From: a virus
Taxonomy: Duplodnaviria; Caudoviricetes
Strand: one strand, 5' to 3'
DNA length: 54,722 bases
Virus record (IMG/VR): IMGVR_UViG_3300049190_000028
Span: 1 to 54,722 of that record
The notes beneath the pieces were generated by a model that was not told the DNA's origin, ran no database searches, and worked only from the letters and a program-made list of their open reading frames with translations. Positions 35,024-53,333 of this stretch are shown here, in pieces (the first letter of the stretch is position 1; each line of letters opens with the position of its first letter). Position numbers and translations under genes: made by a program.

Positions 35024-35235
35024 CGTTCTCGGCAGCGCGTTCGCCAGGACGCGATGCTTCAGCGGTTGGTCGAGGATGCAGCCCGCTCGACCTGAGCAGC
35101 TGGTCCGCGAGGTCGTCCGGCTCCTTCCCGACCGCTGCCGCCGCGAGCCGCGCACGAACATCCGCCAGAGCGGACCGCATGTGCCACGGCAGCGGAGGGA
35201 CCGGCGCAACGCGGCGTCGTTTGCAGCGCCTCATG

Positions 35236-35547
35236 TCAGGCCTCCTGTGCAGCAGGAGCTGTGACGTCGACCGCCGGCGGAACGGGAGCGCCCTTGGCGC
35301 CGACCAGATCGGGCCACTCGCGCCACCAGTCATCGGGTCGCAGATCCCACCGCATCACCGGACGCTCCGAAGCGCGGTTCAGTGGATGAATCTCGATGGC
35401 GATGCAGAGTCGGGGCGGGACAGGCCGCCAGGCCGGGTCAGATTGCTCTCTCGCCCAGCCGCTGACGGTGGGCTGCGAGATGCGGAGCGCGTCGGCCATT
35501 GCGACCTGGTTGCCGAAGTTTTTGATTGCCCGTTGAACACCGTTCAT
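35236..35547 (-). CDS. cro: Cro / YdaS-like HTH regulator
   Basis: GNQVAMADALRISQPTVSGW HTH; RWDLRPDDW..WPDL; divergent from cI. Confidence 0.85.
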   Translation of the reverse strand: MNGVQRAIKNFGNQVAMADALRISQPTVSGWAREQSDPAWRPVPPRLCIAIEIHPLNRASERPVMRWDLRPDDWWREWPDLVGAKGAPVPPAVDVTAPAAQEA

Positions 35548-35553
35548 GGGCTG

Positions 35554-35618
35554 AAATATAGGCAATGCGCTTACTTCGGTCAAGCGCATTGCACGTTATA
35601 GGCAATGCCTGTTGGAAT
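35554..35618. promoter_or_regulatory. oR: pR, putative pRM and repressor operators
   Basis: Minus strand TTGACC-N17-TATATT-N7-ATG(cro); three GCAATGC-core sites; 23 bp shared with pL. Confidence 0.85.
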
Positions 35619-35624
35619 GCGCGA

Positions 35625-36095
35625 ATGCTGACGGGGAAGGAACTAGGAGCCGCGATCAAAGCGGCAATGAAGCTGAAGGGCGTGACCCAGCAGGACGTCG
35701 CGACCGAATTCGGCGTCATGCAGCCATCGGTGTCGGCCTGGACCCGAACCGGCCGCATCGACAAAGAGCACCTAGACCATCTGATGGCCTACTTCGCTGA
35801 CGTCGTCGGCCCGGATCATTGGGGCTTCAAGGCCTTTACCGTCAACTATGACGAGGCCCTGGGGCAGGCGATCAAGCGTGTCAACGAGGAGTTGTCGCCA
35901 AACGGTGTTCCGCCCGGCATGTCGCTCCGTGCAATCAGTTTGGCACGGCGGTTTGACTCGCTGAAGGACGAAGAAGCCCAGCGGATCGTGTACGCGTTGA
36001 TGGACAACGCGCTTCAGCAGTTCGAGGGGACGCCACCGCAAGCCTCGCCGCGCGCACCGCGTAAGCCAAAGCGTCCACCAGGTTCCGATCGCTAA
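35625..36095 (+). CDS. cI: CI-like repressor: XRE HTH without S24 autoprotease domain
   Basis: TQQDVATEFGVMQPSVSAW HTH; 156 aa; no Ser/Lys peptidase motif. Confidence 0.85.
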   Translation: MLTGKELGAAIKAAMKLKGVTQQDVATEFGVMQPSVSAWTRTGRIDKEHLDHLMAYFADVVGPDHWGFKAFTVNYDEALGQAIKRVNEELSPNGVPPGMSLRAISLARRFDSLKDEEAQRIVYALMDNALQQFEGTPPQASPRAPRKPKRPPGSDR

Positions 36096-36528
36096 AGACG
36101 CCCACCGGAATGCCCTTCCTAGCGAGGTCGGCAGCGATGCCGCGAAACGCCTGGACTGTGCAGTCGTTCCCGACCATCGCCAAGCCGCTCGAGCTTGATG
36201 TGCCGCAAGCCCAGTTCAGAAGGGCAGAATGCATTCGCAGCACATCGACGTGCTGACCAAGCATGTGGATCACGATGCCGCAGCTTGGCTCAATGGGGCA
36301 CCCAAGCGCTTCTCGGACGGCTTCTGCCGCGGCGGCGGCATGTAGGTTGTTGATGACGATGACGCGCAGCGCCTGCTGCTCGATGACCTGGAACGCGGCT
36401 GACAAGTTTCTTCCTCCCGTCGCTGCAGCCCCAATGCTGAGGATGTTGCCAACCCCCGATGTGGTGCCCGGTATACCTTCCAGGGTCCCGTTCTCGTAGG
36501 GGTTGCGCCTCGTACCATCAAGTGGCAT
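35935..36528 (-). CDS. Hypothetical alpha/beta protein, weakly STAS/SpoIIAA-like; overlaps the cI 3' end
   Basis: Open 197 codons; ...RKGIPVGVFSDRNLVDALAYA; has its own promoter. Confidence 0.5.
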   Translation of the reverse strand: MPLDGTRRNPYENGTLEGIPGTTSGVGNILSIGAAATGGRNLSAAFQVIEQQALRVIVINNLHAAAAAEAVREALGCPIEPSCGIVIHMLGQHVDVLRMHSALLNWACGTSSSSGLAMVGNDCTVQAFRGIAADLARKGIPVGVFSDRNLVDALAYAVRAARLAVASPRTAEARCPSTRTRSAGLLRPSASQTAVPN

Positions 36529-36542
36529 GCGCGACAGATGTC

Positions 36543-36591
36543 AGTGTGACGACGGCGCCCTGCAATGGCAACTACCAGGAATACGTAAGTA
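36543..36591 (-). promoter_or_regulatory. Leftward promoter with abutting 20-bp box (candidate LuxR site A)
   Basis: TTGCCA-N17-CACACT; CTACCAGGAATACGTAAGTA (36572-36591) immediately upstream of the -35. Confidence 0.6.
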
Positions 36592-36604
36592 GCAGGCAGC
36601 GTTG

Positions 36605-37297
36605 ATGTTTTCGAACCACTACCAAGAACTAGAGAAGCCCAGTTCCGTTGAAAAGTTCACGGAGGCCATGCAGGCCCTGTGCCTCGCCGCTGGCGCCGAG
36701 CGGTTCATCGTCTTCGGCCTTGGTGGCGCAGAAGACGGCGAAGTGCAGCATCTGCTGCACAGCGGCAGCGATGCGGCTGGCGTTGTGCTGCTCGGCTCTC
36801 GGCATTGGACGGTGGACCGGCTGCTGACAACGCTGCGCGTGACGGGCATGCCAGTCGAGCTCGGCGCTGGTGGCCTGGAGGTGAGCGTCGAGGGGTTCGA
36901 GTTCGGGGCCGCCGCGATCTCGCGCGATGCGCATTCGGCGTGTGCCGTGGTATTCGGAACCGACCAACCCCACGCGACGCGCGAGGCGTTGTACGAACTG
37001 CACGCAGGCGCTCAGATGGCGGCGATCTATGCCAGCTGTGGCCTGAAGGTCCTCATGCCACCGAAGACGTGCATGCTGCGGCCACGCGAGTTGGAGTGCC
37101 TGGCCTACTACATGGCCGGCAAATCGACGAAGGAAACGGCCGAGGCCATGGGAATTGGGCCTCGGACCGTAGAAGTGCACTTGGACCGCGCTCGCGCGCG
37201 GTACGGCGTCAAGGCCACGATGGTGGCGGGCATGCGCGCCGTGCGAGAGGGCTGGATCACAACGGCCCAGATTGGGGCCATTCGCGACGCTGCCTGA
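36605..37297 (+). CDS. LuxR-family regulator A (intact HTH, degenerate ligand domain)
   Basis: LRPRELECL...GKSTKETA..MGIGPRTVEVHL. Confidence 0.9.
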   Translation: MFSNHYQELEKPSSVEKFTEAMQALCLAAGAERFIVFGLGGAEDGEVQHLLHSGSDAAGVVLLGSRHWTVDRLLTTLRVTGMPVELGAGGLEVSVEGFEFGAAAISRDAHSACAVVFGTDQPHATREALYELHAGAQMAAIYASCGLKVLMPPKTCMLRPRELECLAYYMAGKSTKETAEAMGIGPRTVEVHLDRARARYGVKATMVAGMRAVREGWITTAQIGAIRDAA

Positions 37298-37357
37298 TCA
37301 GCCGCCACCGTAGGGGATGCCGAGGAGTTCAAGGAAGGCGTCGAAAAAGCTATGCAT
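37298..37357 (-). CDS. 19-aa peptide MHSFFDAFLELLGIPYGGG
   Basis: GGAG 7 nt before ATG; stop abuts the luxR-A stop (TGATCA); lux-box-like site upstream. Confidence 0.6.
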   Translation of the reverse strand: MHSFFDAFLELLGIPYGGG

Positions 37358-37403
37358 GTAGATGCTCCAGTGGGTTGCGTTCGAACCGAATCGGCTCGAA
37401 GCC

Positions 37404-37450
37404 ACTGTGGCATACGTACGTATTTCTGGTAGCTACCAACCCTTGTAGGG
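37404..37450 (-). promoter_or_regulatory. Peptide-gene promoter: lux-box-like site, box copy B and extended -10
   Basis: AG-CTACCAACCCTTGTAG-GG (CT-N12-AG, 37431-37450); CTACCAGAAATACGTACGTA (37413-37432, 18/20 to site A); TGc-CACAGT. Confidence 0.55.
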
Positions 37451-37462
37451 CGGGTGCAATCC

Positions 37463-38185
37463 CTAGGCTGGCTTGATCAGGCCGCCTTCGATGGCGCGCA
37501 GGATCGCCATTGGGCCCGTGGTGGCGGCGAGCTTCTGGGCAGCCGTTCGCTGGGCCCGGGCCCTAGTTGGGTTCGTGATGACGACCTTGTCGCCGCGCAG
37601 GTGCACGACCTGAGCGTCAGCGGCCCATTTCAAGGCTTCTACCTCTTCCTTGCCGACGGCGTTCAGATCAATAGCCGGCGCGGCCGTGTGGATCCGCTTC
37701 GCCGCTGATTGCGCATGCAGCACGATCAGCCGGAGATCGCCCTCGAGCTTGAACCGTGCCGCGCCAGTCGGAACCGGATCAGCGCTGTCCACGCCGAAGC
37801 AGAAGGTCTCAGCGTGCGAGAACTCGTGCAGCGAGATCGCCATGCCGTTGCGGTATCCGAACGGCGCCTGCAGCTCCCACAACTCGCCAGCCCCTGCGGC
37901 GACGTAGAAGGCTTGGTCGTAGACGTGGCACCCCTGCTTGGCCTGCATCGCAGTCAGCAGCGGATCACGTACTCCAACGTCCTGCGACTTAAAGACCTCG
38001 TAGAACCCATCTGGCGGGTTCCCGAAGCTGTGCACCATCGCCTTACGCGACGCCAGCCGGCCGCGGATCAACGTCCCGCCGGCCAGGCCGAACCCGAGCT
38101 TGCCTGCGGCCGCCACGAGCCGCGCCTGCAGCGTCTCCGCGTCAGGCGACAGGCCGATGTCGAGCAGGTCCTGGTAAGCGAGCAT
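37463..38185 (-). CDS. LuxR-family protein B (autoinducer-binding domain, degenerate HTH)
   Basis: GNPP..F...F......RDP...YDQ...LWE..APFGY..G; C-terminus EEVEALKW...AQKL...AILRAIEGGLI lacks the GK and TVxxH motifs. Confidence 0.85.
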   Translation of the reverse strand: MLAYQDLLDIGLSPDAETLQARLVAAAGKLGFGLAGGTLIRGRLASRKAMVHSFGNPPDGFYEVFKSQDVGVRDPLLTAMQAKQGCHVYDQAFYVAAGAGELWELQAPFGYRNGMAISLHEFSHAETFCFGVDSADPVPTGAARFKLEGDLRLIVLHAQSAAKRIHTAAPAIDLNAVGKEEVEALKWAADAQVVHLRGDKVVITNPTRARAQRTAAQKLAATTGPMAILRAIEGGLIKPA

Positions 38186-38209
38186 GGCTTGATGCGGTCA
38201 GAGGGCCGG

Positions 38210-38551
38210 CTACTTTGTTTCCACCTGCACTGCTGAAGGCTTAGGCGCACGCTTCCGCTTTGTGCGGCCCTGCTTGGCCAGCTCGGCAGCATCAAAAACC
38301 AGCGGCCCTGGCTCATTAACCGGCGCCAGTCCGACACCCGCTATGCCAACCAGCGCGGTCGGCAGGTACGCGGGAGGACCGTCTCCGGCCTGTGTCCAGC
38401 CGTGGACTCCACCGCCGAGGGTCAGATGCACACCCAGCCTCCAAAGTCCGGAAGTAATGCCTTTGGCCGCAAGCAGCGTGGTTGCGATTTCCTCGACGGT
38501 GAAGTTCACAGCCCCAGGGGGGCCGGACTGCGATGGAACGGACGTGCTCAT
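38210..38551 (-). CDS. Hypothetical third gene of TA operon (113 aa)
   Basis: ATG at 38551 overlaps the 3' end of the antitoxin ORF as given in the track. Confidence 0.7.
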   Translation of the reverse strand: MSTSVPSQSGPPGAVNFTVEEIATTLLAAKGITSGLWRLGVHLTLGGGVHGWTQAGDGPPAYLPTALVGIAGVGLAPVNEPGPLVFDAAELAKQGRTKRKRAPKPSAVQVETK

Positions 38552-39123
38552 GTAATCGCTGCTGGGCCGAAAGTGGTTTTGGTCTCTTCAGGGCGGAGCC
38601 GTTGATCAGAGTTGGACGTCATGAAGCTCTGAATGACCGTCCACGTCGCCTCCGCCGCCTGCGCCTTGATGGGCTCGAGTGCGTTAGCGCTGCTCACATC
38701 GCGCCACTCGCCATTGACGTACTCAAAGACGTAGCCGTGGGAAACGAAGTCGCGGTCGCAGAGCATCTTCTCGACGGCCTTGTTCAGGTCGCGTCTCGAA
38801 TGCTTGTTCAGCCACGCGAGCCGCAGTAATCGCGCTGCCGCAACTGGCACGGGAGTTGTCCCCTTCTCCCACTTGGCGACAGCCTGGTCCGTGGCGCCGA
38901 CGTACCGGCCGACCTCGGATTGGCTCATGGACAAGCGCTTGCGAAGGAAGCGGAACTCCGGAGCCGTCAGGTTTGCACCGCGGCAAGCGACAGTCCTCGC
39001 AAGCACTTTGAAGAGCCCTTGCAGATCCTCGTAGGCGACGGACTGGTCGTCTCCTTCGCCCTGAATGTCGAAGCCGTTGACCAACCGGACATCCGGCAGG
39101 CCGGTGCCTCTCATGCGATGCAT
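38548..39123 (-). CDS. XRE-HTH antitoxin (MqsA/HigA-like) with C-terminal extension
   Basis: GLPDVRLVNGF...LTAPEFRFLRKRLSMSQ...AVAKWEKG; start overlaps the toxin stop. Confidence 0.8.
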   Translation of the reverse strand: MHRMRGTGLPDVRLVNGFDIQGEGDDQSVAYEDLQGLFKVLARTVACRGANLTAPEFRFLRKRLSMSQSEVGRYVGATDQAVAKWEKGTTPVPVAAARLLRLAWLNKHSRRDLNKAVEKMLCDRDFVSHGYVFEYVNGEWRDVSSANALEPIKAQAAEATWTVIQSFMTSNSDQRLRPEETKTTFGPAAIT

Positions 39124-39443
39124 CACTTTGCCTCGATCACTGTGACAACCAGGCACCCCGTTAGGGCTGCCCAATCTTCTGATGCGTGCTCAATGCCCGC
39201 AATGACAACGCGAACTGAACACCCGCGGTGAACCACTTCTGCCCGCAACTCGCCGTTGGTGTAAACCGGCTCGTAAGCCTTCCCCTTCGACAGGCAGGTC
39301 ATAACGTCCTCGTGGTCAATGTCCCGTTCCTCCATACGTTCCAACGCGTGAGTGCGGAAGCGAACGTTTCGGGAGCTCGCTTTCGCCAAGGCGTTAACGG
39401 CCTTGGTTAAGCGGGAATTGATGCTACCAGACTTGTCTCGCAT
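39123..39443 (-). CDS. DUF4258-like (RelE/BrnT-fold) putative toxin
   Basis: FRTHALERMEERDI...V..CL..G...LVVTVI. Confidence 0.75.
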   Translation of the reverse strand: MRDKSGSINSRLTKAVNALAKASSRNVRFRTHALERMEERDIDHEDVMTCLSKGKAYEPVYTNGELRAEVVHRGCSVRVVIAGIEHASEDWAALTGCLVVTVIEAK

Positions 39444-39453
39444 CCTATACTTT

Positions 39454-39771
39454 TTATAGGTTTGCTTGATGCGATACGTGAGATTCGACCGTCTTTGAGG
39501 GGCGACACAGCCGCGCCTCGCGCTTGGTCTTCAGCGCATGGTCATGCACCGTCAACCACTGCATGTTCGCCGGCGCATCCGCTCCCCCGCACTTCAGGGG
39601 AACGACGTGATCGATCTGCCAGCCTGGGCATGCGGCGCTGGCGCTGGTCTTGCCGGTGGCGGGGCAGGAGTGGGTGCGCTTGAAGTCCCGCATTGCAGCC
39701 TGTGACCGCCCTGGCCATCCGAAAGCTGCGCAGCTGACGGCAAATGCGCAGAAACACAGCAACCACCTCAT
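39454..39771 (-). CDS. HNH nuclease-like protein with N-terminal signal peptide
   Basis: MRWLLCFCAFAVSCAAFG; IDHVVPLKCGGAD...NMQWL...H..KT. Confidence 0.8.
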   Translation of the reverse strand: MRWLLCFCAFAVSCAAFGWPGRSQAAMRDFKRTHSCPATGKTSASAACPGWQIDHVVPLKCGGADAPANMQWLTVHDHALKTKREARLCRPSKTVESHVSHQANL

Positions 39772-40396: not shown

Positions 40397-40443
40397 AAAT
40401 ATAGGCAATGCGCTTGACTCAAGTAAGCGCATTGCCTATATTT
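40397..40443. promoter_or_regulatory. oL: pL inside a perfect 19-bp inverted repeat of operators
   Basis: AAATATAGGCAATGCGCTT-N9-AAGCGCATTGCCTATATTT; TTGACT-N17-TATATT on +. Confidence 0.88.
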
Positions 40444-40491
40444 GCGCCCAGACCCACGAAAACGCCACTCGGCGGGGCAGCGAGGCAGGGG

Positions 40492-51793: not shown

Positions 51794-52302
51794 CTGCATC
51801 AACATCCGGAGCAAAGGACTGGGGCGTCACGCTGGAAGACGCTCAGCGCGAATTGACCTTCTTGCCCGAACTGGGTCGATTCCGCTGGAATTGCGCTGTC
51901 AAGCGTGGTCGCTCAAAAGGCGGCATCGCGGGATTTGCGATCAACGGCGGAAAGTACCGCGTCATATTCTTGCTAGGCCATCGGCACATGGAGCATCGCC
52001 TTGCTTGGCTATTCCATACCGGCTCGTGGCCGCTCTACGATATTGACCATATTGATGGCGACCGGCAGAACAATCGACCAAGCAATCTACGCGACGTTCC
52101 TCGCAAGACAAATTCCGAAAATCAGCGCGTTGGCCGCAATGGCCGCCTCATGGGCACGACGCAGCTTCCAAACGGCGCGTGGGTGGCGTTCATAGGCCAC
52201 AACTACAAGAGCATCAACCTCGGCACGTTTCAAACCGAAGCTGCCGCCCACGCCGCTTATCTGGCGGCTAAGCGCAAGCTACATGCAGGTTGCACCATAT
52301 GA
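51790..52302 (+). CDS. HNH homing endonuclease
   Basis: EHRLAW...IDHIDGDRQNNRPSNLR; lower GC. Confidence 0.88.
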   Translation: MTASTSGAKDWGVTLEDAQRELTFLPELGRFRWNCAVKRGRSKGGIAGFAINGGKYRVIFLLGHRHMEHRLAWLFHTGSWPLYDIDHIDGDRQNNRPSNLRDVPRKTNSENQRVGRNGRLMGTTQLPNGAWVAFIGHNYKSINLGTFQTEAAAHAAYLAAKRKLHAGCTI

Positions 52303-53333
52303 CTGGGCAATACCCCGGGCTTCGGTCCCATGTCAGAAAGCGGAAAAGCGGAAAGGTAGTGGTTTACTACTTCTACGACCGTCGAGCCGAGGGCGGTCCT
52401 GACATTCCGCTCGGTTCAGACTACACGCAGGCGTTGGTCAAGTGGGATGAAATCAGAAACCGTGCGCCGCGCATCGCCGGCACGCTGGAAGAGGCGTTCT
52501 CCAGCTGGGAGACCGACAAAGAGCGCGGCCTGCCCAGCTACACCAGCGCCGAAACGAAGCGCGGATACACGAAGAACCTGCGCCAGCTGCGACCGGTGTT
52601 CGGCGAGGCCACATGGGATCAGATCGACCTGCCGGCGCTGAAGGCCTATCTGCGGGCGCGCACGGCGAAGACGCAGGGCAACCGCGAGATGTCCCTGCTG
52701 TCGATCATCTGGAATTGGGCGCGCATGGAGGGGATGACCCGCCTGCCCTGGCCGGCTGCCGGCATGGAGCGCAGCCGCTGGAAGAACGAGGAGCAGCCCC
52801 GCGAGTTCGAGGTCACGCCCGAGCTGTTCGCCGCCGTCTACGCGGAGGCCGACCAGGTGCTGCGCGACTGCATGGACATCGCCAGCGCTACCGGCATGCG
52901 CCTGACCGATGCCCGCCAGGTGCTGCTGCCAGCCGGCGATCTGCTGCGCCTGAAGGCCAGCAAGACCGGCAAGAAGGCCGACTTCGACCTGTCGCTGTCC
53001 GCGGTGCTACCGGACCTGATCACCCGGCGCCGCGCCGTGAAGGCGTCGCACCTCATGCTGCTGTCGACGCCAGACGGCCGGCCGGTTTCTCAGCGCATGC
53101 TGCGCGACCGTTGGGATGAGGCGCGCGAGGCCGCCGCCAAGGCTGCCGAAGAGGCTGGCGACCAAGCCTTCGCCACCTTGGTCCGCGCCATGTACCTGCG
53201 CGACATGCGCAAGATGGCCAGCGATCTGGTCGAGACGGACGAGGAGGCGGCGACCCTGCTGCAGCACGGCAACGTTGCCCTCACGCGACGGCATTACCGG
53301 ACCCGCGCGACCAAGCTCAAGCCGGTGCGCTGA
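52299..53333 (+). CDS. int: Prophage integrase (tyrosine recombinase)
   Basis: TGMRLTD, RDMRK, LLQH...TRRHY; adjacent to att. Confidence 0.93.
   Translation: MTGQYPGLRSHVRKRKSGKVVVYYFYDRRAEGGPDIPLGSDYTQALVKWDEIRNRAPRIAGTLEEAFSSWETDKERGLPSYTSAETKRGYTKNLRQLRPVFGEATWDQIDLPALKAYLRARTAKTQGNREMSLLSIIWNWARMEGMTRLPWPAAGMERSRWKNEEQPREFEVTPELFAAVYAEADQVLRDCMDIASATGMRLTDARQVLLPAGDLLRLKASKTGKKADFDLSLSAVLPDLITRRRAVKASHLMLLSTPDGRPVSQRMLRDRWDEAREAAAKAAEEAGDQAFATLVRAMYLRDMRKMASDLVETDEEAATLLQHGNVALTRRHYRTRATKLKPVR

What the first reader, a model, noticed from the sequence alone, without database searches (positions are those of the whole stretch)
35625..38185. Candidate new lysis-lysogeny signalling module: split LuxR pair, peptide and divergent ORF beside a non-cleavable repressor
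Seen: two convergent LuxR-family genes sit in the immunity region. LuxR-A has a canonical HTH (E-L-G, TVxxH) but its ligand domain lacks the DP motif. LuxR-B keeps the autoinducer-binding signature (RDP, G) but has lost the GK turn and the TVxxH recognition helix. No luxI is present in the window. A 19-codon ORF lies between the pair, a 20-bp box is shared at both ends of luxR-A, and cI lacks the RecA-stimulated S24 domain. Known: some phages use LuxR-type receptors to switch on small antirepressors independently of SOS, and LuxR proteins dimerise. Inference: B senses and A binds DNA (heterodimer or anti-activator pair), coupling a non-SOS cue to induction.
Basis: partly seen in the sequence, partly recalled or inferred. 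Interest (0 to 1): 0.93.

Follow-up and report, generated by a model that had tools for sequence, protein, structure and literature searches.

The report
Phage LuxR pair with micropeptide gene
A temperate phage carries, next to its repressor gene, two complementary half-degenerate LuxR-type regulators and a conserved 19-codon peptide gene that appear to be borrowed from a host LuxR-plus-peptide circuit and may give the phage a signal-dependent switch.

Summary
The window is a 54.7-kb temperate phage. Two copies of a 46-nt operator bound its immunity region, which contains cI (no S24 domain), luxR-A and luxR-B.

- **Fold:** Both proteins have the full LuxR fold. A keeps a canonical GerE HTH but has lost the ligand-pocket residues. 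B keeps the pocket but has a degenerate HTH.
- **Micro-ORF:** The 19-codon ORF is a real gene. A 17-27-codon homologue with a Shine-Dalgarno site and a structured leader follows B in 12 loci. A lies convergent in 11 of the 12 loci with room.
- **Selection:** Neither gene is decaying (dN/dS 0.15-0.40).
- **Shared box:** The 26-nt box occurs only twice in the window, upstream of A and upstream of the peptide gene.
- **Heterodimer:** An A:B heterodimer is modelled (0.74 against 0.00 for controls), but through the generic LuxR interface.
- **Host relatives:** Chromosomal LuxR solos of the host family have B's pocket, a normal HTH, a lux-box-like palindrome and the same kind of micro-ORF downstream (18 of 28 loci).

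The phage therefore carries a split derivative of a host LuxR-micropeptide circuit. Control of induction is inferred, not shown. The inference rests on the variable gene divergent from A, which reads antisense through cI towards cro.

The parts
35236..35547 (-). cro-like gene (YdaS/Cro HTH); the ORF is open from 35589 but the likely start is MNGVQ at 35547
   Evidence: PF15943 YdaS_toxin, E 1.1e-11. phrog_35, E 4.9e-11. Sigma-70-like promoter TTGACC-17-TATATT at 35583-35555 on the minus strand.
35547..35592 (.). operator/promoter copy 1 (between cro and cI)
   Evidence: A 46-nt inverted copy, 91% alike, lies at 40405-40450.
35625..36095 (+). cI-like repressor, HTH only, no S24 domain
   Evidence: HTH_37 and HTH_3. 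RacR-like NF049929, E 2e-18, below its cut-off. 81% identical to the L001 homologue.
35935..36402 (-). orf155: gene divergent from luxR-A and convergent with cI, overlapping the cI 3' end by 161 nt; no known family
   Evidence: Homologues in L001 (48%) and L012 (25%, E 1e-5 in a small set); L004 also has a 161-aa ORF in the same position (23% identical in alignment A8). TTG start behind GGGAGGA. A database gene call gives 156 aa. No Pfam, PHROG, PDB or Atlas match.
36403..36604 (.). divergent control region between orf155 and luxR-A, with blocks conserved in L001 and L002
   Evidence: Alignment A4. On the orf155 strand it includes a TTGAT(G/T)-N17-TA(C/G)(G/A)A(G/T)-like stretch; that promoter reading is mine by eye.
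36566..36591 (+). box 1: the shared 26-nt element, ending 10-13 nt before the luxR-A start
   Evidence: The same layout occurs in L002 (22 nt, 91%) and L001 (17 of 22).
36605..37297 (+). luxR-A: LuxR-fold protein with a canonical GerE HTH and a degenerate ligand pocket
   Evidence: GerE 41 bits. Profile against TraR 2q0o, E 5.2e-16 over residues 6-215. AF2 pLDDT 88.5. Top Foldseek hits are TraR, QscR and RhlR. Pocket residue table.
37298..37357 (-). 19-codon micropeptide gene (MHSFFDAFLELLGIPYGGG), same strand as luxR-B; its stop abuts the luxR-A stop
   Evidence: Homologous micro-ORFs are complete in 12 loci. Synonymous codon variation. No Pfam or NCBIfam match for the four that are 20 aa or longer.
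37358..37408 (-). structured leader of the micropeptide gene: inner GC hairpin plus an outer stem next to the Shine-Dalgarno site
   Evidence: RNAfold z of -2.3 or lower in 10 of 12 loci. Own-locus stem complementarity exceeds cross-locus complementarity, 21 of 10,000 permutations. No Rfam family.
37404..37409 (-). -10-like hexamer CACAGT (xAxAxT in all 12 phage-type loci)
   Evidence: Alignment A7. No transcript start was mapped.
37413..37438 (-). box 2: the second copy of the shared 26-nt element, between the lux-box-like element and the -10-like hexamer
37432..37449 (-). degenerate lux-box-like element CCTACAAGGGTTGGTAGC, 22 nt upstream of the -10-like hexamer
   Evidence: Host and other phage loci have 18-22-bp palindromes matching 6-8 of 8 half-site positions, 21-23 nt before xAxAxT.
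37463..38185 (-). luxR-B: LuxR-fold protein with the ligand pocket of the host LuxR solos and a degenerate C-terminal domain
   Evidence: Autoind_bind. 74 homologues, 42-100% identical. Profile against RhlR, E 1.3e-12 over residues 25-238. AF2 pLDDT 87.3, with a low-confidence beta-hairpin at 194-203 where HTH helix 2 should be. Pocket residue table.
40405..40450 (.). operator/promoter copy 2, the far edge of the immunity region

Best explanation
This is a phage-borne, split derivative of a host LuxR-solo/micropeptide circuit, built into the immunity region as a signal input to the lysis-lysogeny switch.

Shown:

- luxR-B, a micropeptide gene and convergent luxR-A form one conserved unit.
- B has the sensor pocket of the chromosomal LuxR solos but a degenerate DNA-binding domain.
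- A has the DNA-binding domain but a decayed pocket.
- In the window's clade, A and the peptide gene share a 26-nt cis element.
- The peptide gene has a lux-box-like element at about the classic distance from a -10-like hexamer.

Inferred:

- A is the DNA-binding component. It binds the shared element and so controls its own gene and the peptide gene. It may also control the divergent promoter.
- B tunes A by forming heterodimers, depending on what B's pocket binds. This is the logic of CerN/CerM and TrlR/TraR.
- The output is the variable gene divergent from A. In the window, L001, L003 and L012 its transcript would run antisense through cI and on into cro (L004 has the same gene order, with its ORF overlapping cI). 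In L002 it would run directly into the early operon.
- Switching that promoter on would therefore lower cI and bypass the cI-repressed early promoter, and it might also deliver an antirepressor. No RecA-dependent cleavage would be needed.

Whether A activates or represses at the box is open. The box lies over the -35/spacer region of the peptide promoter, which fits a repressor at least as well.
For: Synteny:
- B is followed by a convergent A in 9 of the 10 B-found loci (12 in all; 2 too short) that have room, and again in L051; with the window, 11 of 12.
- The micro-ORF is complete in 12 loci.

Immunity-region placement:
- Window.
- L001, where the 2.8 kb between the operator copies holds only B, the peptide gene, A, orf155 and cI.
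- L002, which has a different operator and a different cI.

Domain states:
-.
- 16 pocket positions are shared by 5 or more of the 7 B proteins and all 10 host solos. They are mostly lost in A.
- Ligand-domain identity is 37% for B against host and 16% for A against host.

Other evidence:
- Selection: dN/dS is 0.15-0.29 for B and 0.32-0.40 for A.
- Heterodimer model: ipSAE 0.74, best of 3 controls 0.00. That mark was reached by 58 of 80 solved complexes and 2 of 110 mismatched pairs. The three runs share at least 73% of their contacts and the partner's pLDDT is at least 76.
- Shared box.
- Variable divergent gene next to variable cI types.
- No CTGT-N8-ACAG site anywhere in the window (motif recalled).
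- Precedents: phage TF-smORF modules, including two that need both an XRE protein and a LuxR protein (PMC10432266, passages read). CerN-AHL binds CerM and blocks its DNA binding (PMC11655674, abstract and passages).
Against: - No experiment or transcript map links any of these genes to induction.
- The A:B interface is the generic LuxR ligand-domain dimer. The pass may only reflect likeness to solved homodimers, and homodimers were not modelled.
- The box duplication is seen only in the window, L001 and L002. In the 5 other loci tested the best match was at or below the shuffled-control maximum.
- The box ends 10-13 nt before the A start, and no -10-like hexamer follows it there.
- dS is saturated (above 1), so the dN/dS values are rough.
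- B keeps a conserved C-terminal domain and may still bind DNA or another partner.
- In the window, B lies at the end of a row of five other genes, so its own regulation is unclear.
- L007 and several genomes have tandem copies of the LuxR gene without an A gene; for L007 this was checked, for the others it was not. So the sensor protein can work without A.
Confidence: 0.45

Rival explanations
1. The module manipulates or eavesdrops on the host circuit and does not control the phage switch. B carries the host solos' sensor domain but has no working HTH. It would therefore soak up the host signal or form dead heterodimers with the host LuxR solo, as TrlR does with TraR. A and the peptide would then reprogramme or replace the host circuit's output in lysogens.
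For: - B's ligand domain is 37% identical to the host solos' and shares their signature residues.
- Such solos were found in 99 of 401 genomes of the host family at E 1e-20 or better.
- The phage peptide belongs to the same micro-ORF family as the host ones.
- The window's immunity region also carries other accessory genes, including an MqsA-like HTH protein, a DUF4258 protein and an HNH-like protein.
- Dominant-negative LuxR relatives are known; TrlR is one (review PMC13043044, passages).
Against: - This does not explain why A is kept in 11 of the 12 loci with room (window included).
- It does not explain why the module sits between the two operator copies in three phages with two different operator sequences.
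- It does not explain why a variable gene divergent from A always points towards cI/cro or the early operon.
- The host of this particular phage is unknown, so I could not check whether it has the solo.
Confidence: 0.25
2. Receptor-ligand pair. The micropeptide, whole or processed, is the ligand of B and of the host solos. The phage would then make and sense its own peptide signal, or listen to the host's. This would be a LuxR-family counterpart of the arbitrium and Rgg/SHP systems.
For: - The micro-ORF sits where luxI sits in tandem luxR-luxI loci (the luxR-luxI layout is recalled). It lies behind a lux-box-like palindrome 21-23 nt before a -10-like hexamer.
- 18 of 28 host loci have the micro-ORF. 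The controls gave 1 of 28 on the opposite strand and 2 of 28 upstream.
- The core motif h-P-(R/K/T)-x-G-(G)-(W/G) is conserved, while the rest of the peptide varies like a specificity determinant.
- The pocket differs from the six AHL hallmark residues at three positions. W57 is replaced by F or Y, W85 by Y, and Y61 is variable (the hallmark list is from PMC11655674).
- The rsaM-luxR solos of Pelomonas and relatives are reported without a luxI gene (PMC10710839, passages).
Against: - The peptides have no signal sequence, and no transporter or processing gene is conserved beside them.
- A peptide of 17-27 aa is large for a LuxR pocket.
- No binding model could be run.
- The peptide could equally be an intracellular inhibitor or partner of B or A.
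Confidence: 0.15
3. Decay or chance. A and B are two decaying LuxR pseudogenes, the small ORF is an accident of the intergenic sequence, and the repeat is a coincidence.
For: - Each protein has lost hallmark residues in one domain.
- A has few close relatives in the word-indexed search, 2 hits including itself.
Against: - Frames are intact in all 9 B and 8 A genes compared, with dN/dS 0.15-0.40.
- 63 cluster representatives match the A profile at E 1e-30 or better.
- B has 74 homologues of near-constant length.
- The micro-ORF, its Shine-Dalgarno site and its leader are conserved in 12 loci.
- The box occurs twice against 0 expected.
Confidence: 0.03

Closest known systems
Phage TF-smORF induction modules, especially XRE-LuxR-smORF of Aeromonas phages ARM81ld and Apop (Silpe et al., Nature 2023, PMC10432266; passages read)
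   Same: - A phage-encoded LuxR-type protein lies beside the repressor gene.
- A counter-oriented small gene without homologues sits next to the transcription factor.
- Two regulators are needed together.
- In those phages the pathway is independent of repressor cleavage.
   Different: - Here the second regulator is another LuxR-fold protein, not an XRE protein.
- The two genes are convergent, not in an operon.
- The sensor protein lacks a canonical HTH, and its pocket differs from the AHL hallmark residues.
- A conserved micropeptide gene is part of the unit.
- These are integrase-carrying lambdoid phages, not linear plasmid-like phages.
- No function has been tested here.
CerN/CerM of Cereibacter sphaeroides (PMC11655674) and TrlR/TraR of Agrobacterium (via PMC13043044 and PMC11655674)
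   Same: - A LuxR homologue without a working DNA-binding domain controls a DNA-binding LuxR homologue by direct binding.
- CerM binds DNA without AHL, and CerN needs the signal. That matches A's decayed pocket and B's kept pocket.
   Different: - CerN and TrlR lack the C-terminal domain altogether. B keeps a conserved, remodelled one.
- Those systems are chromosomal or plasmid-borne and use AHL.
- Neither has an associated micropeptide gene.
[quoted passage not shown]
   Same: - The host loci found here have a DUF4902 (RsaM-type) gene divergent from a LuxR solo. Four of the 6 genes tested matched at E 0.005 or better, and one exceeded the Pfam cut-off.
- B's sensor domain belongs to this LuxR lineage.
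   Different: - The passages I read do not mention the downstream micro-ORF or its lux-box-like element.
- The phage module has no DUF4902 gene, and orf155 gave no match.
- The phage adds luxR-A.
Peptide-pheromone receptor loci with an adjacent micro-ORF: Rgg/SHP, arbitrium AimR/AimP (recalled, no paper read here)
   Same: - A cytoplasmic receptor gene has a very short peptide gene beside it, under a receptor-type promoter.
- In arbitrium the pair sits in a phage and sets lysis or lysogeny.
   Different: - The receptor fold is different (LuxR, not RRNPP/TPR).
- The hosts are Gram-negative.
- There is no signal sequence.
- Nothing shows that the peptide is exported or sensed.

Membership tests
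LuxR family (quorum-sensing type): luxR-A | C-terminal GerE/LuxR-type HTH | tested here: met
   PF00196, 41 bits (cut-off 23.5), residues 160-208. Four-helix C-terminal domain in the model.
LuxR family (quorum-sensing type): luxR-A | N-terminal autoinducer-binding domain fold | tested here: met
   No Pfam hit from the single sequence. The family profile aligns to TraR 2q0o over residues 6-215, E 5.2e-16. Foldseek hits full-length QscR, RhlR and SdiA at E 1e-7 to 1e-10.
LuxR family (quorum-sensing type): luxR-A | Six AHL-pocket residues W57, Y61, D70, P71, W85, G113 (list from PMC11655674) | tested here: not met
   Only the D and G equivalents remain in the window's A. A homologues in L003 and L004 still have D-P and W.
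LuxR family (quorum-sensing type): luxR-B | N-terminal autoinducer-binding domain | tested here: met
   PF03472, 27.9 bits (cut-off 23). Profile against RhlR, SdiA and LasR. Foldseek.
LuxR family (quorum-sensing type): luxR-B | Six AHL-pocket residues | tested here: not met
   D74, P75 and G110/G114 are kept. The W57 equivalent is F or Y, the W85 equivalent is Y, and the Y61 equivalent varies. The host solos show the same pattern.
LuxR family (quorum-sensing type): luxR-B | Canonical GerE HTH | tested here: not met
   No PF00196 hit for the window protein; 2 of 74 homologues carry one. The C-terminus aligns to the RhlR DNA-binding domain. However, the model puts a low-confidence beta-hairpin at 194-203 where helix 2 should be, and the T-V-x-x-H stretch is absent.
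AHL luxI/luxR circuit | A cognate LuxI-type synthase gene nearby | tested here: inconclusive
   The PF00765 search of the record found nothing, but its controls also found nothing. None of the 8 ORFs scanned between 35236 and 39443 is a synthase.
Phage TF-smORF induction module (PMC10432266) | Transcription factor with a counter-oriented small gene beside the phage repressor | tested here: met
   orf155 is divergent from luxR-A and convergent with cI. The same layout holds with related or unrelated small genes in L001, L002, L003, L004 and L012.
Phage TF-smORF induction module (PMC10432266) | The small protein inactivates cI and induces lysis without repressor cleavage | not testable with these tools
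   Needs lysogen genetics and repressor assays.
HTH-less LuxR antagonists (TrlR, CerN) | Absence of the DNA-binding domain | tested here: not met
   B keeps a conserved 70-residue C-terminal domain. It works like this family at most; it is not a member.
HTH-less LuxR antagonists (TrlR, CerN) | Direct binding to a DNA-binding LuxR partner | tested here: inconclusive
   Model only: 0.74 against a best control of 0.00. The interface is the generic LuxR dimer, and no homodimer was modelled for comparison.
RsaM-associated LuxR solo locus (PMC10710839) | DUF4902 gene adjacent to the luxR gene | tested here: not met
   There is none in the phage module. It is present beside the host relatives.

The most novel reading that the evidence does not exclude
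The micropeptide, or a piece of it carrying the h-P-R-x-G-G-W/G core, is the cognate signal of a whole lineage of 'LuxR solos' in Burkholderiales. That would be a ribosomal peptide in the place of an AHL. Temperate phages would have captured the receptor-signal pair and split the receptor into a sensor (B) and a DNA binder (A). This would make a peptide-based, arbitrium-like lysis-lysogeny communication system in Gram-negative hosts.
Probability: 0.12. Interest if true: 0.95.

Novelty: new variant of a known kind. Interest (0 to 1): 0.8.

Why it matters
Phage LuxR receptors and SOS-independent induction modules are known from only a handful of vibrio and Aeromonas phages. This module would extend that logic in several ways.

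- **New hosts and phage type:** it would apply to lambdoid phages of soil and rhizosphere Burkholderiales.
- **Division of labour:** it shows a natural split between a sensing and a DNA-binding LuxR protein.
- **Unannotated micro-ORF family:** it points to a family of micro-ORFs tied to LuxR solos that have been reported as lacking any signal synthase.

If the peptide turns out to be the signal, or a dedicated partner of these receptors, two open questions become directly testable with synthetic peptides and reporters. One is what the rsaM-luxR solos of Pelomonas-like bacteria sense. The other is whether Gram-negative phages run peptide-based decision systems.

My four literature searches on LuxR plus phage, small peptide or RsaM, together, listed no paper describing such a module.

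Tried and rejected
- **Phage collection:** blastn of 35200-38600 and tblastn of A and B found no match.
- **BFVD fold search with B:** no viral relative, best E 1.1e-3, GAF-like.
- **Rfam on 36300-37600:** only chance-level hits, E 0.25 or worse and far below gathering scores.
- **RNAalifold:** run on a MAFFT alignment of the 12 leaders it predicted no pairs, because loop lengths differ and the stems were misaligned. I used single-sequence folds and a cross-locus permutation instead.
- **orf155:**
  - No Pfam, NCBIfam or PHROG family.
  - No usable Atlas hit.
  - No PDB relative from a 4-sequence profile, best E 1.3.
  - Only itself in the 5.8-billion-protein search.
  - By eye it looked STAS-like; nothing supported this and I dropped the idea.
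- **Box in the more distant loci:** looking for the shared box upstream of A in L003, L004, L005, L011 and L012 gave matches at or below the shuffled-control maximum.
- **Promoters:** the sigma-70 consensus scan found only the cro promoter in 35100-38700, and the terminator-like hits were at chance level. The promoter readings for the peptide gene and orf155 are therefore mine by eye.
- **LexA box:** CTGT-N8-ACAG gave 0 matches against 0.58 expected.
- **Peptide resemblance:** I considered that the peptide mimics the N-terminal helix of B, which has a similar h-h-D/E-h-G-h-x-P pattern. I did not test this.
- **RNA evidence:**
  - Two rhizosphere metatranscriptome runs hold contigs identical to 35655-35815, 37125-37286 and 37126-37368.
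  - They are contigs without strand information, the shares were small (0.07-0.08), and DNA carry-over cannot be excluded.
  - I count them only as a hint that the stretch carrying the peptide gene and the 3' end of A is present in RNA libraries. Uncovered parts say nothing.
- **Paper supplements** were closed. Those of PMC10432266 and PMC10710839 may list related loci that I could not see.

Full report
**What the window is.** The window is a whole IMG/VR virus record of 54,722 bases, estimated 90% complete, with about 66% G+C.
- PHROG scans name a portal protein, a major head protein, a large terminase and tail proteins. They also name a DnaD-like loader and a DNA methyltransferase on the minus strand.
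- On the plus strand they name an Erf-like annealing protein, exonucleases and an integrase at 52290-53333.
- It is therefore a lambdoid temperate phage.
- A 46-nt operator/promoter stretch at 35547-35592 recurs, inverted and 91% alike, at 40405-40450.
- The first copy carries a sigma-70-like promoter pointing into a YdaS/Cro-like gene.
- Everything between the two copies is the immunity region, and the finding lies inside it.

**Check of the observation.**
- luxR-A (36605-37297, +) has a GerE HTH (41 bits) and no Autoind_bind hit. luxR-B (37463-38185, -) has Autoind_bind (27.9 bits) and no GerE hit.
- The two genes are convergent.
- The 19-codon ORF lies at 37298-37357 on B's strand, with GGAG 7 nt before its ATG.
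- The box is a 26-nt inverted repeat at 36566-36591 and 37413-37438. These are its only two occurrences in the window, with 0 expected.
- cI (35625-36095) matches only HTH families.
- Two points need correcting:
  - Profile searches against solved structures align the B family to RhlR end to end (E 1.3e-12) and the A family to TraR (E 5.2e-16).
  - AlphaFold models (pLDDT 87.3 and 88.5) find full-length TraR, QscR, RhlR and SdiA. Both are therefore whole LuxR folds, each with one worn domain.
  - The divergent ORF starts most likely at the TTG at 36402, giving 155 aa. The evidence is a strong ribosome-binding site, codon-position G+C, the L001 homologue and a database gene call.
- 'No luxI' could not be checked, because the one search had silent controls.

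**The pair is conserved and selected.**
- B has 74 relatives of 42-100% identity and near-constant length. Where named, they come from Roseateles, Pelomonas and Rubrivivax.
- A looked almost orphan in the word-indexed search, with 2 hits. A profile of nine A proteins then found 63 cluster representatives at E 1e-30 or better.
- Twelve loci were found through B in genome, viral and metagenome collections. An A homologue of 29-47% identity lies convergent just downstream in nine of them.
  - Two loci are too short to tell.
  - One, L007, a 1.2-Mb chromosome contig, has two tandem B-like genes and no A.
  - A thirteenth locus from a complete chromosome, L051, has the same layout.
- No B or A gene compared has a stop or frameshift. 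dN/dS is 0.15-0.29 for B and 0.32-0.40 for A, and 0.65 for the most distant A pair. dS is saturated, so these values are rough.

**The micropeptide gene.**
- The B-A spacer aligns between the window, L001 and L002, and the aligned small ORF keeps its frame, start and ribosome-binding site.
- A homologous ORF of 17-27 codons is complete in 12 loci. It is cut by the contig end in L008 and absent in L007.
- The peptides share a hydrophobic, acidic N-terminal part and a core h-P-(R/Y/F/V/I)-x-G-G-(G/W).
- Gly, Pro and Leu codons vary synonymously.
- The ORF ends within a base or two of the end of the convergent A gene, or overlaps it by up to 44 nt.
- Its leader folds into an inner GC hairpin and an outer stem.
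  - In eight loci the 3' strand of the outer stem covers the Shine-Dalgarno site or the AUG.
  - The fold z-score is -2.3 or lower in 10 of 12 loci.
  - The stems differ in sequence between loci but stay complementary within each locus. Own-locus helices are longer than cross-locus ones, a result reached by 21 of 10,000 permutations.
- No Rfam, Pfam or NCBIfam family matches.

**Where the module comes from.**
- A profile of B searched against 401 genomes of the bacterial family holding L001 matched 99 of them.
- Apart from two phage-type modules, the best 30 loci encode chromosomal LuxR homologues with a canonical HTH.
- They share with B the residues N56, P58, F/Y61, D74, P75, Y89, D90, Y94, W103, G110, Y111, G114, H120, F128, G131 and D133, which A has mostly lost.
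- Ligand-domain identity is 37% for B against host and 16% for A against host.
- In 18 of the 28 host loci with enough downstream DNA, the gene is followed on the same strand by a micro-ORF carrying P-(R/K/T)-x-G-(G/W/P).
  - The controls gave 1 of 28 on the opposite strand and 2 of 28 upstream.
- Where the palindrome search picked the upstream element rather than the leader hairpin, it found an 18-22-bp lux-box-like palindrome. For six host and two phage loci this lies 21-23 nt before an xAxAxT hexamer.
  - That puts its centre near the classic lux-box position, about -43. The classic figure is recalled, and no transcript start was mapped.
- The window keeps a degenerate copy, CCTACAAGGGTTGGTAGC at 37432-37449, 22 nt before CACAGT.
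- Divergent from the host luxR gene lies a DUF4902 (RsaM-type) gene in 4 of 6 cases tested, one of them above the Pfam cut-off.
- A review describes exactly such divergent rsaM-luxR solo pairs without luxI in Pelomonas and a few other genera (PMC10710839, passages). The passages I saw do not mention the micro-ORF.
- The host thus has one protein that senses and binds DNA, plus a peptide gene. The phage has the sensor (B), the peptide gene and a separate DNA binder (A).

**Link to the switch.**
- In L001 the 2.8 kb between the two operator copies holds only B, the peptide gene, A, orf155 and cI.
- In L002, which has a different operator repeat and an unrelated cI, the operator-bounded region holds cI, a DUF4468 protein, B, the peptide gene, A and a 119-aa ORF.
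- The gene divergent from A varies between loci:
  - orf155-like in the window, L001 and L012, and a 161-aa ORF in the same position in L004, 23% identical in alignment A8.
  - Unrelated in L002 and L003.
- In every case that gene points towards the lytic side.
  - In the window, L001, L003 and L012 it is convergent with cI, and cro lies beyond cI on the same strand; L004 has the same order, and its ORF overlaps cI as in the window and L001.
  - In L002 it is directly upstream of the early operon.
- A conserved sensor next to a variable output next to a variable repressor is the pattern expected if the output must match the cognate repressor. This is the pattern described for the TF-smORF modules (PMC10432266).
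- The geometry also mirrors lambda's PRE, which reads antisense through cro into cI (recalled). Here the read would go antisense through cI into cro.

**How A and B may work together.**
- The complex model places the long helix and N-terminus of A (residues 2-6 and 126-141) against those of B (2-7 and 141-160).
- It scored 0.74 against a best control of 0.00. That mark was reached by 58 of 80 solved complexes and 2 of 110 mismatched pairs. The runs share at least 73% of their contacts, and the partner's pLDDT is at least 76.
- This is the dimer interface of solved LuxR proteins. The pass shows likeness, not a preference for the heterodimer.
- The nearest tested precedent is CerN/CerM: CerM binds DNA without signal, and CerN plus AHL binds CerM and stops it (PMC11655674).
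- In the window's clade the shared 26-nt element lies over the right half of the lux-box-like element and the spacer of the peptide promoter. A second copy ends 10-13 nt before the A start.
- That position suits a repressor at least as well as an activator, so I leave the sign open.
- One further reading follows if CACAGT is a true -10. Transcripts starting there would lack the 5' strand of the outer stem and would translate the peptide. Read-through from B would contain that strand and would mask the ribosome-binding site in the loci where the stem covers it. This is inference only.

**Verdict.**
- Its role in induction is a reasoned inference, with confidence about 0.45.
- The main rival is interference with the host's own LuxR-peptide circuit (0.25).
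- The boldest reading not excluded is that the peptide is the signal of this LuxR lineage (about 0.12-0.15).
- I file it as a new variant of known kinds: phage LuxR/TF-smORF modules and LuxR antagonist pairs.
- In six searches I found no paper describing a LuxR-micropeptide-LuxR module or the host micro-ORF family.

Noticed in passing
L021, L023-L050 (chromosomal loci of the host bacterial family): Canonical LuxR solos are followed by an unannotated micro-ORF of 9-35 codons with core P-(R/K/T)-x-G-(G)-W. It occurs in 18 of 28 loci, behind a lux-box-like palindrome. Four of 6 tested loci have a divergent DUF4902 (RsaM-type) gene. Two peptides, in L030 and L032, carry the hydrophobic part after the core instead of before it.
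   Followed up: partly
window 38548-39443 (-): An MqsA-like HTH protein of 208 aa (TIGR03830, E 9e-11, below its cut-off) overlaps a DUF4258 protein of 106 aa upstream of it. This is a toxin-antitoxin-like pair inside the immunity region, and it is absent from the L001 immunity region.
   Followed up: no
window 39454-39771 (-); L004 8710-8997: A small HNH-like protein with a hydrophobic N-terminus (phrog_333, E 6e-7). A 51%-identical copy lies between B and A in L004, so it moves together with the module's surroundings.
   Followed up: no
window 35935-36095; L001 8079-8236; L004 10871-11064: The gene divergent from A overlaps the 3' end of the convergent cI gene by about 160-190 nt in three loci. 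The overlapped tail of orf155 may simply be an open antisense frame. In L012 the related protein stops earlier.
   Followed up: partly
L007 4259-5708; G145:C21 409536-413725; G099:C143 186641-189671; G318:C1 3616647-3618895; G331:C16 91125-93953: Tandem arrays of two to five LuxR homologues of this lineage lie on chromosomes. L007 has no A-type partner and no micro-ORF. I did not inspect the other arrays.
   Followed up: no
window 37125-37368 and 35655-35815: Contigs from two rhizosphere metatranscriptome studies are identical to these stretches. Two of them begin at 37125 and 37126, and one ends at 37368, the first G of the peptide gene's GGAG. The strand is unknown and DNA carry-over is possible.
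   Followed up: partly
luxR-B residues 120-126 (window about 37808-37828): An H-E-x-x-H-x-E stretch lies on a predicted beta-hairpin. H120 is invariant, and H124 and E126 are at least 90% conserved in the B family. H120 is also kept in the host solos, but H124 falls in a gap there. It may be a ligand or metal contact.
   Followed up: no
window 36450-36456 and 36500-36506: CAACCCC and GGGGTTG form an inverted pair about 43 nt apart in the A-orf155 control region. Both halves are conserved in L001 and L002 (alignment A4).
   Followed up: no
G001:C283 14955-15665 (L021): The genome that carries the L001 prophage module also has a chromosomal LuxR solo with its own micro-ORF (MYLIDLICEVLGVPRFGG). 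Phage and host versions therefore coexist in one cell.
   Followed up: partly
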